From NCBI GenBank assembly GCA_964516875.1, contig CAZFAO010000006.1, forward strand, positions 17,049-81,048: DNA of 64,000 nt, given 5' to 3'. Shown piece after piece: positions 58,401 to 64,000 of this stretch. Positions within the stretch are counted from its first letter, which is position 1, and every line of letters begins with the position of its first letter. This DNA comes from an uncultured Burkholderiales bacterium (lineage in GTDB: Bacteria; Actinomycetota; Acidimicrobiia; IMCC26256; JAGPDB01). Position numbers: made by a program.

Positions 58401-61400
58401 TGCAAAGCAAAATCCTCCCGTGACTTTCGTGTTCACTCCTCGACCAAACTTCATATCGTCGTTGCCACACATGCACAATGTTGCTGTGGGAACAATTGCG
58501 TGTGAAGATCAACTCAACGAACTCGTTCAAGCTTGTCAGCAGTTGGACGAGACAGGACCAGACGTTCTTGTTGTTGTTGATGACTGTGAAGACTTGGCAG
58601 AAGGAACTTTTGCGATGACAATGGAGTCGTTGATGCGAGAAATGAAACAGAAACTTCACGTTGTTGCAGCGGGTGACCCAACCGTGTTTGCTCGTGCCTA
58701 TACAGGTTGGCTGGCTGAAGTGAAAAAACCTAAGAGCGGTTTGTTGTTTAAACCTGATCCACAAATGGATGGCGATATCACAGGTGTGAAGTTACGAATT
58801 TTGCCCGGACAAACTTTCCCTCCAGGACGAGGATTCCTCTGTCTCGATCGTCAAGCAATCTTGATGCAGGTGGGGATGTAGCTAGCCGCCGAATGAACGG
58901 GCACGAATAAGCGCGATGTTGCACGCTTCATTGACATCTGCAAAATGATGATCAAATTCTTCAGCAGTTAGTCCGTGCCATTGTTTTGGTCGATTGGGAA
59001 GCAACATATTATCTTTTACTGCTTGCACTGTTTCTTCAGGTGTTGCGCCAGAAAAATTTACACAGCCCGCGTTGATCTGAAGAACAGTTCGCGTTTTCAG
59101 TTCGGGACTGTTCGTGTCACTCGTATCGATGTAACTGAACTTTGTTACAAAAGCTCTCATTTGAGTTCCTGTACCGCGTGGACCTAATTCAATGAGGTCA
59201 GATTCAATATCTTCAAACGTTGCAGCGATCTCGTCGTCTGTAATTTCCTCTCCCCAGCCTTCACTAACGAGGCGATCAATGATTTGGGCTTTTTCATTAA
59301 CGCTTAAATCACGAAGTGTTTCAATTTGTGCAACCAATAAGCCACCCTTACCTGAATCTATAATGCGTTCTGCAACTTCGAAATGATTGAGGCCTTCAAA
59401 ATCATCAATTAACGACAAGAGGGGATTGACTTCACCGCTGTTAATCAGCATGTGTGCAATTGACCTATGTGTATCAGGATGAAATGCCTCAATTCCCGCA
59501 ATAACATCACAGGCATAATCATTGACGATAAGAAATGTCGCAACATCAAGGTTCAAGTGGCGCAATGTCCCTAATGCATTAGCTAATCCATGTACATCAT
59601 GAGCATCGATGAGTTCTTGAGCACGTTGATGTGAAGCCTCTGCGGACTGCGTTCTGGAAAATGTCACCTACACACAATAGGACATAACGCCCATATTGTC
59701 AAAAAAGTTATGTTTATTTTCCCTTAAGAAGTGAGGTAAGTTTCATCCAAGCCGCTTCAAGGTCGATGGTGGTGTTCTTTGATTTCACCATTGCTTCACG
59801 GGCGGCATCGATTGCAGCCTTAGGAGCACCCGAATTCCTCAAGTTTTGCAGAACCTTGAGTTTCTGAGCGAGATCTAATCGTGATGCATCAAGAGCTCGT
59901 TTAGCCGCCGCTAATCGACTAGCTGTCGCAGTTGCAGATGTAGCAGCACCTGCAGCTCCGGCTGTTGCGGTTCCAGTAGCAGTAGCTGTTCCAGCTCCGG
60001 CTGTTGCGGTTCCAGCAGCAGTAGCTGTCCCAGCTCCGGCTGTTGCGGGAAGTGCGGCTGTTGCGGCACCCGATCCAAGAGGTATTGCGCCCGATGGAAG
60101 TGCGGCTGCTCCAGTTCCGGCTGCAGCGGCTCCGGCCCCTGCGCCACCGACGATCAACATTCCACCACCTATTACAGCGGCAGCTATTGCAGGTGTCATC
60201 GCGGCACCTTGAATCCATGGGCCGTAATGGTTCCACCACTCAGAATTTGCTCGCGCATTTTCGCTCTCTGCATTGGCCTTATCCAAGGTTTTATCCCATG
60301 GATCAGCATGCGTTGGACCTTCTTCGTAAATATCATAAACCTGACCAGCTAACTTTGCAGACGCTGCTCGGGCAGAAGCACTTTCGAGGGCAGAGGCACC
60401 AGGGTGTGCAGCATTCCATGCTTTGGATTCTTTTTCGAGTTGAGCCGCGGCACCTTGTTCACGCATTGCAGCTGTTGCTGGATCAGTAAAGAACTCTTGG
60501 AATTTCTTTCCTTCATCTGTCTTCCAATAGTCTCTGTCAGGCATGTGAGCCAGCAACTCATCTTCAAGAGCTGCTGCTGCGCTGGCATCTTTCCCATCAA
60601 CGGCAGACGCAAATGTATGAAGTTTTTCTGACAAAATACCACCACGAAATATTGCGCTCGTATGCATGGTTGCAGTTGCGTTGAAGTTTGCGATTTCCAT
60701 AGAAGCAATCATTTGCTGTCCGAGTTGTGCTTTTGTCTTTGCAAGTTCCGTTTTTGCTCGCGCTGATACTTCTACTGCTATTTCTTTTTGCTTATTTTCT
60801 GTGGCGATCCATTCTGTGTACTGATTTACATCGCCCAATGCATCGGCTATTGCTGTGAGATCGCCAGAAGCATTAGCTGCTTGGACACGAGCGTTCGCGC
60901 CAGCAAGTAATAGAACATTTTTTGCAATCATAGATGCGAGATTTGCAATAGATGCATCAGCTTCTGCAATAAGGAGATGGAGAGCGCTGATGGATTTCAC
61001 ATGACTTTTATTCATGTTCGTCAGTGCATTTAATACATTTTTCATGTGATTATCTGCACGACTACGTTCTGCTGATGCACGTGTTATGGCGTTTTTGTAT
61101 TTTGTTGCTTGAGTTTGAAGAGCACTGGTATCTACTGAAAAATCTGCCATTTTTATTACCTATATTTCGATTTTGTTGAATGCGGATTGTGCAGCTTCGA
61201 GGGCTGTTGAGGCCGGTTCGAGAACATCATTACTCAAGGTTGTGAAGATTTCGTTTTTGACTCCGTTTGATGCGTCAACAGCTTTTGAGGACATCCCTGC
61301 ACCAAACGGTTCAACAAAAAGGTGCTTATGGCACGTATCTAACGATGCAAGCGCCGCTCCAAATTCCCAACCGTATGCTTGGACAGTTCGCACGGCAATG

Positions 61401-64000
61401 TCGCGCTCTCTGAGAATGGTGTCTAATTGTGCCGAGAGGTCACCAGACATGGTTGCTCCTTAACATGAAGGTTAGTAATGATAAAAGAGTTCTCGTCACA
61501 CAAAATGTGTGACGAGAGTGACTTAGCTAAAGGAATTAGCGCCGTGATTGTCAGCTTTTTGGAATGAATCCATCCCGATGCCAACGTTGCCGACAAGTCG
61601 TGTAAGAACACCGTCGAGTTCAACAAGGATTGGCTCAAAGTGGCTCTTAAGCTTATTGATCGCAGCTTCGCGTTGCTTACCGACAAGTTCATCACTTACT
61701 CGGTCACTGATAATTTTTCGAATGATTTGATCATTCACCGCACGAACTTCTAGTTGGTGGGTTCGTAATGCTTCTGCATCTGTGTATGAAAGTGTAATCA
61801 TGATAACTCCTTAAAAATATTGAATTCTTAGACGATGGTTTCTTCGTCAATGATGTCGAGATACTTGGCAAATTCTTTTTCGCCGTGCGCAAATTCTTTA
61901 AGCTTTTGTGTGAGCTTGAGAGAAACAGCGTCATACTCATTGTTTGCTTGAACAGTTTTGTTCACGAAAAGACCTTTTGAACGAGAGTTGAAATCACTCA
62001 CGAATTCAGTCATTTTTGCTTTGATAGTTACAATTTGATCGGACCCATCTACGGCCTTGTTCGCATTGCTGGTCTGTACACCACTGTCGTGGCGAAGATT
62101 TGGAGTTGTCATTGCACATCCTTTGCTTGTTGTACCCCTCAGGGTTATAAAAAGTACTATAAGGTGCAAAAGGGAAAAATGCAATGAGAAATGACAATTT
62201 GGAAGCCAAAATTGCGAATTTTTTTTCGTTGGGTGCGCGGAACTCCGGTTTTATGCGGAAAATGCGTTTGGTGCGAGAATCATTTTTGTACCTAATACCG
62301 CACGGCCGCAACGGCTAATTCGTCTACAAAATCGTTCATTTCGTGTCCTGAATGACCTTTGACCCACGTGAAGGAAACATTACCGTGATCCATCACTTTT
62401 TTAATAAAAGGCTCCCACAAATCTTTGTTGGCTACAGGTTTGCCAGCGGAGTTTTTCCAATTTCTTTTCATCCAGCCAACATGCCATTGATCGTTGAAAC
62501 ATTTGACGACGTATTGGGAATCGGAGACTATTTCTATGTGTACGTATTGATCGGCGAAGTGCGCAACGGCCATAAATGCAGCATTGACTTCCATGCGTTG
62601 GTTCGTCGATGGGTTTTCGCTTCCCGAATCAAATTCTTCGCGCGACACTGCCCATGCCCACCCGCCGGGACCAGGGTTTCCACTACACGCGCCATCGGTA
62701 TATACAACAATTGATTCAGTCATTCCCAACAGGTTAGTGGCATATAACGCGATACGAGAACCGAAAATCCGTGAGTAGAATGAACAGATGTCCAAGGTGC
62801 GTTTCTTTCACTCCATAGTGCTATCTATCGCGATTGTGACTCTGTCTAGCGCCTGTTCTTCCAGCGATTCGTCATCGGACAGGAGAAGTCGACGATCTCT
62901 ATCGCGCGAATCAACGACGACAACGAAATCGAAAACAACTTCAACAACTGCTCCGACGCAAAATACGACACCCATTGTTGAAGTTCCTTTTTTGAGTCCT
63001 GCCCAAATTCCACAAACGTGGACGCAAGCAAATCTGTGCAGTCTTATTTCTGTCGCGGACGCTCAATCTATTTTGAACATGACGACTGCTCCCACGTCAA
63101 CATATTCTCATTCGGACACCACGGGCGCACGATGCACTTTTTCAACTGGGTCGGGCGACGAAATATTTATTGAACTATCGAGCGTATCGTTTGCCGATGC
63201 CCGTGCAGTCGACACAGCACTCAACGCTACAACCACACCCATTGTTGTTGACGGGGTTGGTGGCGTATCGAAAACCAACAAAGCAACAGGGGTTACGTAT
63301 ATGTTAAACGTGTCGGGGGCAGCATCGAATCAATGGGTAGTCAACGCGCCCACAGATTCTCAAACAAATGATGCAGCGAAATTGCTAATCACCTCGCTCA
63401 AATAAGCCACTTTTGCCTAGGATGAACTTTTATGAATGAACTTGTTGTTATCGGTGGGTCTGCTCAGGGCCTTTCAACGGCTGTTGCTGCTCGAAAAGCT
63501 GGGGCGGCGTCTGTTCGTGTAATCGAAACGAAAAACAGTGTTGCCTATCCAGAAATGGTGGGGAATGAACGACTCGATGTTAGCTACGGAGAAAAAATTC
63601 TTGCGATTACTGAAACGGATAATGGTTTACTGATCAAAACCGATACGCGTGAATATCCAACGCAGGCGTGTGTTATCGCGCTGAATTCTGAACATGCCGT
63701 TGTTGATCTGCCGTCAGGGATTTCCACCTCTTCGCATGTCCATGCTGGGCCAGAATCTTTAACGCACAGCATTGCTGGAAAAGATATCCTCGTCGTGGGA
63801 GATAACGACCGCGCCGTGGTTCTTGCAGCTCGGTATGTCCACGAGGGCGCGCGAAGTGTTGTGCTCGCGGCGCGAGGGATGAATCCCGACTTGTTGTCCG
63901 ATGCTTCGCACGATGTTATTGCGCAGTTGGAAAAAGATCGACAGCTAACGGTTCTATATCGGGCAACACCACACACCATCGATGAACTCGATGACGGTGA

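What the first reader, a model, noticed from the sequence alone, without database searches (positions are those of the whole stretch)
61160..62184. Three non-canonical ESAT-6-size proteins with an internal attenuator hairpin; none has a central WxG
Proteins of 94, 92 and 96 aa lie in tandem behind a promoter-like TTGCAT-17-TATAGT site.
- None has the central W-x-G of WXG100 proteins.
- The 96-aa protein has W28-E-F-G31.
- The 92-aa protein has no Trp but carries FQKAD (F80-D84) near its C-terminus.

As I recall, ESX substrates use a C-terminal YxxxD/E export signal, and the Lap1-type targeting factors of LXG effectors are reported to use FxxxD.

A 12-bp-stem hairpin followed by a U-tract (61478-61517) sits between the second and third genes. 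This would give higher expression of the first two genes than of the downstream effector genes.
Basis: partly seen in the sequence, partly recalled or inferred. Interest (0 to 1): 0.55.

Follow-up and report, generated by a model that had tools for sequence, protein, structure and literature searches.

The report
Divergent type VII secretion effector cassette
The three small genes are real: they form the front of a five-gene secretion-substrate cassette beside a type VII secretion ATPase in an uncultured actinobacterium, and a conserved terminator hairpin separates an ESAT-6-like pair from a toxin-like effector and its small helper.

Summary
Every sequence observation checks out: three ORFs of 94, 92 and 96 aa, no W-x-G, W28-E-F-G31, F80-QKA-D84, TTGCAT-17-TATAGT, and a 12-bp hairpin with a U-tract.

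Comparative data refine the interpretation.
- **A and B** are a conserved gene pair found beside EssC throughout a small uncultured actinobacterial lineage. They give weak but consistent similarity to WXG100/ESAT-6/LXG proteins. S-x-G (A) and L-V-G (B) sit where W-x-G would be. B's FxxxD...A tail is conserved in every homologue.
- **C** belongs to an undescribed ~100-aa helical-hairpin family with a PFGAGMSS loop. It always sits directly upstream of polymorphic effectors that share the N-terminal ~240 aa of the 478-aa protein D. Some of these effectors end in a CHAP domain.
- **W28-E-F-G31** lies inside helix 1 and is not conserved.
- **The hairpin** lies exactly at the A-B | C-D junction. It keeps pairing through four compensatory changes in a relative. 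A non-homologous 12-bp hairpin occupies the same place in a distant copy of the cassette.
- **The promoter** is conserved in seven loci.
- **E**, the last gene, has its own leaderless-type promoter.

This is a known kind of system (Esx pair, helper, polymorphic toxin, terminator after esx genes, as in S. aureus) built from unannotated families. Partial versus full termination is untested.

The parts
62156..62184 (-). Sigma-70-like promoter of the cassette: -35 TTGCAT (62184-62179), 17-nt spacer, -10 TATAGT (62161-62156)
   Evidence: Exact match. Conserved with L003. The same -35/spacer/-10 layout lies upstream of A homologues in 7 loci. L097 has TTGCAA-17-TATTAT upstream of its A gene.
61828..62112 (-). 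Gene A, 94 aa: probable WXG100-like helical hairpin with invariant central R44-S45-x-G47-x-F49-V50 in place of W-x-G
   Evidence: 19-member family, none with a Pfam domain. AF2 gives helix 10-45, turn 46-49, helix 50-93 at pLDDT 59. The family profile's best PDB hit is an ESAT-6-like protein, 12fa_A, E=0.01, full length. Its L097 homologue (31% id, E 9e-14) is hit by a clean actinobacterial WXG100 HMM at E=3.5e-5.
61523..61801 (-). Gene B, 92 aa: probable WXG100-like partner with central L39-V40-G41 and conserved C-terminal F80-xxx-D84-xxx-A88 export-arm-like motif
   Evidence: V40, D84 and A88 are invariant and F80 is kept or shifted by one gap in all 9 homologues. hhalign against clean actinobacterial WXG100 alignments gives probability 30-63%, E 5.5e-4 to 7e-5, about 90 columns. 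The PDB profile hit is an LXG domain, 8gmh_B, E~0.1, with L-V-G aligned on L-T-G.
61481..61517 (-). Intrinsic-terminator-type hairpin (12-bp stem 61517-61506 / 61502-61491, 3-nt loop) plus U-rich tail ACUCUUUUAU, at the junction of the A-B and C-D modules
   Evidence: L002 has an 11-bp hairpin with 4 compensatory pairs. L097 has an unrelated 12-bp hairpin 10 nt after its B stop codon. Strong terminators follow B in L007 and L086.
61160..61450 (-). Gene C, 96 aa: helical hairpin of an undescribed family with a conserved loop P48-F-G-A-G-M-S-S55; candidate targeting factor or chaperone of D
   Evidence: AF2 gives helix 3-43, loop 44-54, helix 55-94, pLDDT 68.5. There are 11 distant relatives among 1.84 billion representative proteins. 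Every relative examined sits directly upstream of a D-type effector. No profile link to WXG100.
59714..61150 (-). Gene D, 478 aa: polymorphic effector-like protein. It has an N-terminal ~240-aa helical domain, a hydrophobic segment at about residues 315-344, an Ala/Gly/Thr-rich stretch at about 345-410 and a C-terminal helix
   Evidence: The N-terminal domain is homologous to L090_518 (E 1.7e-17), L097_462, and L093_406 and L095_397, which carry a C-terminal CHAP domain. No Pfam, PDB or LXG hit.
59674..59702 (-). Promoter-like site TTGACA-17-TATTGT, ending 6 nt before the GTG start of gene E (predicts a leaderless mRNA)
   Evidence: Best consensus match in the region, 10 of 12. The same layout, TTGACC-17-TAGTAT-6 nt-ATG, precedes the E homologues of L004 and L005.
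58882..59667 (-). Gene E, 261 aa: soluble protein that co-occurs with the Gly/Ala-rich type of effector C-terminus; candidate immunity protein or chaperone
   Evidence: Homologous to L005_256 (32% id, E 8e-34) and L090_255 (E 6e-7), each directly downstream of a Gly/Ala-rich effector. No Pfam hit. No hydrophobic segment.
54256..58881 (+). EssC/EccC-type FtsK/SpoIIIE ATPase, 1541 aa, convergent with the cassette
   Evidence: Pfam FtsK_SpoIIIE E 3e-67, three stretches. TIGR03928 EssC scores 578 bits and TIGR03925 EccCb is above its cut-off. Synteny with A-B holds in all related loci.

Best explanation
Region 58882-62184 (minus strand) is one type VII secretion substrate cassette. It lies convergent with EssC in an uncultured actinobacterium whose nearest MAGs are labelled Acidimicrobiia or Actinomycetota.

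Transcription starts at a conserved promoter (62156-62184).

A and B are a strongly diverged ESAT-6/CFP-10-like pair of helical hairpins. The W of W-x-G is replaced, giving S-x-G in A and L-V-G in B. B carries the C-terminal FxxxD...A tail that would present the pair, and possibly the effector complex, to EssC.

The 12-bp hairpin with its U-tract directly after B is the intrinsic terminator of this pair. Most transcripts stop there. A fraction reads through into C-D, so A and B are made in excess.

C is a helper that binds the N-terminal helical targeting domain of D. D is a polymorphic effector whose C-terminal Gly/Ala/Thr-rich hydrophobic module is the cargo, possibly membrane-active.

E is made from its own leaderless promoter and acts as the cognate immunity or chaperone protein.

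Shown: gene structure, conservation of the promoter, hairpin, motifs and gene neighbourhoods, and domain sharing of D.
Inferred: the WXG100-type fold of B, dimerisation, secretion, the C-D interaction, partial termination, and the roles of D's C-terminus and of E.
For: T7SS context:
- EssC lies next to the cassette, with an EssB-like pseudokinase upstream.
- The A-B pair is adjacent to EssC in L005, L006, L007, L084, L086 and L088.

A and B as WXG100-like:
- A: AF2 hairpin with S-K-G at the turn. ESAT-6-like is the top PDB hit, E 0.01. L097_A is hit by a clean WXG100 HMM at E 3.5e-5.
- B: hhalign 30-63% against clean WXG100 references over about 90 columns, while the C family scores below 1% as a negative control and refA versus refB scores 97% as a positive control.
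- The B profile hits divergent actinobacterial WXG100 ORFs first, L011 at E 1.5e-3.
- The FxxxD...A motif is conserved.

C with D:
- C-like genes always lie 6-10 nt upstream of effectors that share D's N-terminal domain but have different C-termini, either CHAP or Gly/Ala-rich.

Hairpin:
-.
- The same A-B-hairpin-C-D order occurs in L097 at another chromosomal site.

Precedents:
- A rho-independent terminator after S. aureus esxA allows read-through, and esxA is over-expressed (PMC4285178).
- Lap1 FxxxD (PMC9600955).
- EsxBCD serve as export factors for EsaD (PMC10350083).
Against: - No curated model (Pfam WXG100, DUF3130, DUF3958, LXG; NCBIfam) matches A, B, C or D.
- The profile links of A and B to WXG100 are all borderline.
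- AF2 confidence is low to moderate (pLDDT 59 and 68.5), and Foldseek gave nothing specific.
- B was not modelled.
- In L084 and L088 no hairpin follows B, and other genes follow directly. The hairpin is therefore a feature of some arrangements only.
- In L005 and L006 the A-B pair is divergent from the effector operon, so A-B and the effector need not be co-transcribed.
- A -10-like TATCAT (TATATT in L002) lies just after the U-tract and could drive C-D independently.
- E has no membrane segment. That is unusual for immunity to a membrane-active toxin.
- No transcript or protein data exist.
Confidence: 0.6

Rival explanations
1. There are two independent units. A-B is the core secreted Esx pair of the apparatus and ends at a fully efficient terminator. 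C-D is transcribed separately from a promoter overlapping the terminator tail (-10-like TATCAT at about 61474-61479). The hairpin is therefore an ordinary operon boundary, not an attenuator.
For: - A-B occurs alone with a strong terminator in L007 and L086.
- A-B is divergent from the effector operon in L005 and L006.
- A -10-like hexamer directly follows the U-tract in both the window and L002.
- In S. aureus RN6390 an esaA promoter overlaps the esxA terminator (PMC4285178).
Against: - Only about 30 nt separate the U-tract from C's start codon.
- There is no acceptable -35, and the consensus scan found no promoter there.
- AT-rich spacers give -10-like hexamers by chance.
- In L097 A-B-hairpin-C-D travel together at a locus far from EssC, which suggests one functional unit.
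Confidence: 0.25
2. A, B and C are all effector-specific, Lap-like or EsxBCD-like export factors for D, with B as the Lap1 analogue carrying FxxxD. They are not the general Esx pair of the system.
For: - The L097 cassette A-B-C-D lies away from EssC.
- The window-type A and B form their own clade. They are 31-34% identical to L097 but only 19-27% identical to the EssC-linked main clade, although EssC itself is 82% identical.
- Three small partners plus a toxin is the EsaD arrangement (PMC10350083).
- FxxxD is the Lap1 signature (PMC9600955).
Against: - The window has no other WXG100-like pair near EssC. The reference and family HMMs hit no other small ORF in the 64 kb.
- A-B occupy the same site, behind the same conserved promoter, as the main-clade pair.
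- There are no Pfam DUF3130 or DUF3958 matches.
- FxxxD is equally conserved in the main-clade B proteins that have no adjacent effector.
Confidence: 0.12
3. The small ORFs or the hairpin are chance features with no secretion-related role.
For: No curated family matches any of them. Helical hairpins and coiled coils give spurious low-level profile hits.
Against: - All three ORFs are conserved as proteins in other assemblies with conserved order.
- Strong Shine-Dalgarno sites precede B and C.
- Synteny with EssC holds in more than 8 loci.
- The hairpin shows compensatory changes.
Confidence: 0.03

Closest known systems
EsxA/EsxB (ESAT-6/CFP-10) WXG100 pairs of actinobacterial and firmicute T7SS
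   Same: - Two adjacent ~95-aa genes next to an FtsK/SpoIIIE ATPase.
- Predicted helix-turn-helix.
- One partner (B) carries a C-terminal hxxxD/E-type motif followed by a short tail.
- Weak profile similarity points only to this superfamily.
   Different: - No Trp at the turn: S-x-G in A and L-V-G in B.
- No match to Pfam PF06013.
- Only 20-34% identity even among lineage relatives.
- Here the pair is fused into one transcription unit with an effector module.
Lap1 (DUF3130) / Lap2 (DUF3958) targeting factors of LXG toxins, and EsxB/C/D export factors of S. aureus EsaD
   Same: - Small alpha-helical proteins encoded immediately upstream of a polymorphic T7SS toxin.
- An FxxxD motif near the end of helix 2 of one of them (PMC9600955).
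- Three small partners before the toxin, as for EsaD (PMC10350083).
   Different: - No sequence match to DUF3130 or DUF3958.
- Lap1's DxxTxxxGN motif is absent.
- The FxxxD carrier (B) is two genes away from the effector and also occurs without any effector.
- C has its own signature, PFGAGMSS.
- D has no recognisable LXG domain.
S. aureus esxA-esaA intergenic rho-independent terminator
   Same: A terminator directly after the small Esx gene(s) at the head of a T7SS gene cluster. It is associated with excess Esx transcript and strain-dependent read-through (PMC4285178).
   Different: - Here it follows a two-gene pair.
- It separates the pair from an effector module rather than from the machinery genes.
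- No expression data exist.
TspA-type membrane-depolarising T7SS toxins and other polymorphic T7SS toxins
   Same: A helical N-terminal targeting domain with a variable C-terminal cargo. One variant has a hydrophobic, glycine-rich C-terminus. A downstream cognate gene is present (PMC7456083).
   Different: - D's N-terminal domain is not LXG by sequence.
- The downstream protein E is soluble, whereas TsaI is a polytopic membrane protein.
- Toxicity is untested.

Membership tests
WXG100 (Pfam PF06013) | About 100 residues | tested here: met
   94, 92 and 96 aa.
WXG100 (Pfam PF06013) | Central W-x-G at the turn of a helix-turn-helix hairpin | tested here: not met
   No W-x-G in A, B or C. The turn motifs are S-K-G (A), L-V-G (B) and F-G-A-G (C).
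WXG100 (Pfam PF06013) | Sequence match to the family model | tested here: not met
   No Pfam hit at E<=10 for A, B or C. Profile-profile against clean actinobacterial WXG100 alignments gives B 30-63%, A 1-4% and C below 1%. The A profile hits PDB ESAT-6-like 12fa_A at E 0.01.
WXG100 (Pfam PF06013) | Helical hairpin fold | tested here: inconclusive
   AF2 predicts two long helices with a central turn for A (pLDDT 59) and C (pLDDT 68.5). B was not modelled. Foldseek gave no specific match.
WXG100 (Pfam PF06013) | Encoded next to an EssC/EccC FtsK-SpoIIIE ATPase | tested here: met
WXG100 (Pfam PF06013) | Dimer formation and T7SS-dependent secretion | not testable with these tools
Lap1 / DUF3130 | Match to DUF3130/TIGR04197 and the DxxTxxxGN motif | tested here: not met
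   No Pfam or NCBIfam hit. The motif is absent from A, B and C (translations).
Lap1 / DUF3130 | Conserved FxxxD near the end of helix 2 | tested here: met
   B has F80-QKA-D84, conserved in all 9 homologues.
Lap2 / DUF3958 | Match to DUF3958 | tested here: not met
   No hit at E<=10.
LXG domain toxin (PF04740), for protein D | N-terminal LXG domain with a conserved L-x-G | tested here: not met
   No Pfam hit. L82-A-G84 is present in the window and L002 but not conserved in the family alignment. The PDB profile search gave only coiled-coil noise.
Polymorphic toxin architecture, for protein D | Shared N-terminal trafficking domain with unrelated C-terminal domains in homologues | tested here: met
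   The N-terminal ~240 aa are shared with L090_518, L097_462, L093_406 and L095_397. The last two end in CHAP (E 6e-8 and 2e-6).
Rho-independent (intrinsic) terminator | Stable G+C-containing stem, short loop, 3' U-tract, placed after a stop codon | tested here: met
   12-bp stem with 6 G-C pairs, 3-nt loop and tail ACUCUUUUAU, starting 5 nt after B's stop codon.
Rho-independent (intrinsic) terminator | Actual termination, and its efficiency | not testable with these tools
   Needs 3'-end mapping or a reporter assay.

The most novel reading that the evidence does not exclude
An uncultured actinobacterial (Acidimicrobiia-like) lineage has a pared-down T7SS with its own unannotated substrate-recognition toolkit. 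The apparatus is EssC with a YukD-like N-terminus plus an EssB-like pseudokinase. The toolkit comprises:
- a Trp-less Esx pair;
- a new helper family with a PFGAGMSS loop;
- a new non-LXG trafficking domain that carries polymorphic cargoes, namely CHAP amidase or a Gly/Ala-rich membrane module.

The cassette A-B-hairpin-C-D moves as a unit between chromosomal sites, and its internal terminator sets the stoichiometry.
Probability: 0.45. Interest if true: 0.55.

Novelty: new variant of a known kind. Interest (0 to 1): 0.4.

Why it matters
- It extends the rule 'small helical partners plus polymorphic toxin', so far worked out in Firmicutes (Lap1/Lap2-LXG, EsxBCD-EsaD), to an uncultured actinobacterial lineage. 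I found no T7SS literature for this lineage.
- It shows that the W of W-x-G is dispensable, while the C-terminal FxxxD-type arm is kept.
- It defines two unannotated families that could be added to domain databases to find more T7SS effectors: the C family, and the N-terminal domain of D.
- The conserved hairpin gives a simple, testable case of stoichiometry control inside a T7SS substrate operon.
- None of this overturns current models.

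Tried and rejected

**Contaminated profile comparison.** My first hhalign result for B (96.7%, E 4e-10) was inflated. The iteratively built reference alignment had absorbed one B homologue (L002_B).
- With that sequence removed the value is 63%.
- With references built only from unrelated loci it is 30%.
- The apparent 'A matches EsxA-like, B matches EsxB-like' reciprocity is also void, because those two reference sets overlapped almost completely.

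**Searches that gave nothing useful.**
- Foldseek against PDB gave no hits for A and only generic antiparallel helices for C.
- Single-sequence PDB searches of A, B, C and D gave nothing.
- The D N-terminal profile against PDB gave coiled-coil noise.
- Rfam found nothing in 58500-63000.
- Two JGI metagenome scans, with the B and C alignments, found no relatives.

**Relationships looked for and not found.**
- D versus the D-position protein of L005 shows no detectable similarity in the N-terminal domain. Those loci use a different trafficking domain preceded by a WXG100-like 97/107-aa protein and a 106-112-aa protein.
- C is not related to those 106-112-aa proteins by hhalign.
- A, B and C are not detectably related to each other.

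Full report
**What is in the sequence**

On the minus strand the window carries five genes in a row:
- A: 61828-62112, 94 aa.
- B: 61523-61801, 92 aa.
- C: 61160-61450, 96 aa.
- D: 59714-61150, 478 aa.
- E: 58882-59667, 261 aa.

They are convergent with a 1541-aa FtsK/SpoIIIE ATPase at 54256-58881. B and C have AAGGAG ribosome-binding sites. The spacers are 26, 72, 9 and 46 nt.

- No W-x-G is present.
- A and B have no Trp.
- W28-E-F-G31 is in C.
- F80-QKA-D84 is in B.

The site TTGCAT-17-TATAGT is at 62156-62184. The hairpin TCTCGTCACACA-TTT-TGTGTGACGAGA, followed by ACTCTTTTAT, is at 61517-61481. The B-C spacer folds far better than shuffled sequence, with z = -4.17.

**Context**

The ATPase matches EssC/EccC models: TIGR03928 at 578 bits, and TIGR03925 above its cut-off. 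Its N-terminus gives a weak full-length YukD match.

The overlapping upstream 518-aa gene is kinase-like. However, it has H-A-N for HRD and D-Y-M for DFG, followed by one membrane segment. This is a pseudokinase with EssB-like topology.

A genome scan with EssC found close relatives (65-82% identity) only in four MAGs. These are labelled Acidimicrobiia, Actinomycetota and, probably through mis-binning, Burkholderiales. The next EccC proteins are about 33% identical.

**A and B**

None of A-E matches Pfam or NCBIfam. B has only three relatives in the 5.8-billion-protein index. An A-family profile found 19.

In every related locus an A homologue is followed by a B homologue, next to EssC and the pseudokinase. 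Sometimes nothing else lies between RNase H and EssC, as in L007 and L086.

Conserved motifs:
- The A family has an invariant central F-x-x-(D/E)-F-x-x-R-S-x-G-x-F-V.
- AF2 with this alignment gives helix 10-45, turn 46-49 and helix 50-93. S45-K46-G47 therefore sits where W-x-G would be, but confidence is low at pLDDT 59.
- The B family keeps V40(G41) centrally and G-M-x-x-F-x-x-x-D-x-x-x-A at the C-terminus in all nine sequences.

Sequence links to known families are weak, but all point the same way:
- The A profile's best PDB hit is an ESAT-6-like protein, E 0.01, over its full length.
- The B profile hits an LXG domain at E 0.1, with L-V-G on L-T-G.
- The B profile's first out-of-family hits among 5633 local ORFs are divergent actinobacterial WXG100 proteins.
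- hhalign of B against clean WXG100 reference alignments gives 30-63% probability over about 90 columns. The C family scores below 1% and the two references score 97% against each other.
- A clean WXG100 HMM hits the L097 homologue of A at E 3.5e-5.

An earlier figure of 96.7% was an artefact of a contaminated reference, and I withdraw it. I rate WXG100-superfamily membership of A and B as likely but not demonstrated.

**C and D**

C has one close relative. An exhaustive HMMER search of 1.84 billion representatives found eleven more proteins of 95-112 aa. Their alignment shows:
- F49, N62 and P79 are invariant.
- The loop motif is P-F-G-A-G-M-S-S.
- W28 is not conserved, and G31 is Ala in the nearest relative.

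AF2 places W28-E-F-G31 inside helix 1 and the PFGAGMSS motif in the loop at residues 44-54. No profile method links C to WXG100 or to any solved structure.

The informative result is the gene neighbourhood. Each C-like gene examined lies 6-10 nt upstream of a large protein whose first ~240 residues are homologous to D, while the C-terminus differs:
- L090: a Gly/Ala-rich hydrophobic module, followed by an E homologue.
- L097: an Ala/Thr-rich hydrophobic module.
- L093 and L095: a CHAP peptidoglycan-amidase domain.

This is the architecture of a polymorphic effector with a dedicated helper. D's own C-terminus has a hydrophobic segment at about 315-344, a 95% Ala/Gly/Thr stretch, and a terminal helix. 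D is not an LXG protein by any test available.

**The hairpin**

The hairpin lies exactly between the A-B pair and the C-D module.
- In L002 (B 80% and C 89% identical) an 11-bp hairpin with a U-tract occupies the same position. Four pairs changed on both sides and none on one side only.
- In L097 the cassette A-B-C-D lies in a tuf/fusA island, and A and B are only 31-34% identical to the window proteins. There, an unrelated 12-bp hairpin starts 10 nt after the B stop codon.
- Strong terminators also follow B where it faces EssC, in L007 and L086.
- None is present where other ORFs abut B, in L084 and L088.

The structure is therefore maintained by selection as the 3' end of the A-B unit.

Sequence alone cannot decide whether it is leaky. 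Only about 30 nt lie between the U-tract and C. No acceptable promoter is found there. However, a -10-like TATCAT (TATATT in L002) does follow the U-tract. The closest precedent is the terminator after S. aureus esxA, which is read through in some strains while esxA remains the most abundant transcript (PMC4285178).

**Promoters**

The TTGCAT-17-TATAGT site has a weak -35. Its layout is nevertheless conserved upstream of the A genes in seven loci whose proteins have diverged to 20-30% identity, and also in L097.

A second, better consensus site is TTGACA-17-TATTGT at 59702-59674. It ends 6 nt before E's GTG. The same geometry precedes the E homologues in L004 and L005. This predicts a separately expressed, leaderless E mRNA.

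**Comparison with known systems, and verdict**

The arrangement works like the known T7SS substrate modules:
- an Esx-type pair;
- small helical export factors ahead of a polymorphic toxin (Lap1/Lap2-LXG, PMC9600955; EsxBCD-EsaD, PMC10350083);
- a cognate downstream protein;
- a terminator after the esx genes.

It fails the sequence-based membership tests for WXG100, DUF3130, DUF3958 and LXG. I therefore file it as a new variant of a known kind, built from unannotated families in an uncultured lineage.

Its interpretation is partly supported: the T7SS idea, the FxxxD motif and the hairpin hold. The WEFG motif is spurious, the three proteins are not equivalent, and attenuation versus termination stays open. 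Interest is moderate.

Noticed in passing
window 59674-59702 (-), upstream of gene E (58882-59667): The best sigma-70 consensus match in the region is TTGACA-17-TATTGT, which ends 6 nt before E's GTG start. This predicts a leaderless mRNA. The same geometry, TTGACC-17-TAGTAT-6 nt-ATG, precedes the E homologues in L004 and L005.
   Followed up: partly
window 52733-54289 (+): The 518-aa 'protein kinase' overlapping the start of EssC has H-A-N-I-K instead of HRD and D-Y-M instead of DFG, then one transmembrane segment and a ~180-aa C-terminal domain. This is a pseudokinase with EssB/YukC-like topology, and it is syntenic with EssC in all related loci. No EsaA, EssA, EccB, EccD, EccE or MycP genes were seen near it.
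   Followed up: partly
window 54256-54560 (+), N-terminus of EssC: Residues 23-89 of EssC give a weak but full-length match to the ubiquitin-like YukD domain (E 0.054). This suggests that YukD/EsaB is fused to EssC in this lineage.
   Followed up: no
window 54256-58881 versus 61523-62112; L005, L086: EssC is 82% identical to that of L005, and 82-90% identical in its C-terminal part. The adjacent A and B proteins are only 19-27% identical to those of L005. The substrate pair has therefore been swapped or has diverged far faster than the ATPase that should recognise it.
   Followed up: partly
L084 9822-9900; L005, L007 and L088 upstream of A; window 62190-62260 (-): Upstream of the -35 of the A promoter, the main-clade loci share tandem CGCAAT-like repeats (ACGCAATATTCGCAAAATGTCAATA...) spaced about 10-11 nt apart. 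The window has degenerate TTCGCAAT and TTGCA copies. An OmpR-family response regulator and a histidine kinase (window 50644-52547) are syntenic with the T7SS genes in L084 and L086, so these repeats may be the regulator's operator.
   Followed up: no
window 49317-49994 (-): A 225-aa protein gives a strong match to NpmA-type 16S rRNA (adenine1408-N1) methyltransferase (Pfam PF24675, E 2e-50). This is an aminoglycoside-resistance-type enzyme. It is conserved at the same place in L086 and L087.
   Followed up: no
L090, L093, L094, L097 (loci with C-D cassettes): In other genomes the C-effector cassettes sit in an island between tuf/fusA and the ribosomal protein genes, next to a Nudix gene. In L093 the neighbouring EF-Tu gene is broken into five short ORFs. 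L093 and L084, and likewise L094 and L085, come from the same samples, so one organism probably carries both the EssC locus and a remote CHAP-effector cassette.
   Followed up: partly
L005 15568-17771; L004 15108-17299; L006 18339-20166; L084 7550-9760: Relatives carry a different effector module at the same site. It has a 97-107-aa WXG100-like protein with F-x-G (Pfam WXG100 E 8e-6 in L006), a 106-112-aa protein, and a 371-519-aa effector whose N-terminal domain is unrelated to D. In L004 and L005 this effector has a similar Gly/Ala-rich C-terminus and is followed by an E homologue.
   Followed up: partly
L005, L006 (record titles): Two MAGs carrying this actinobacterial-type locus are labelled 'uncultured Burkholderiales'. 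The labels are probably binning or taxonomy errors, since the same locus occurs in MAGs labelled Acidimicrobiia and Actinomycetota.
   Followed up: no
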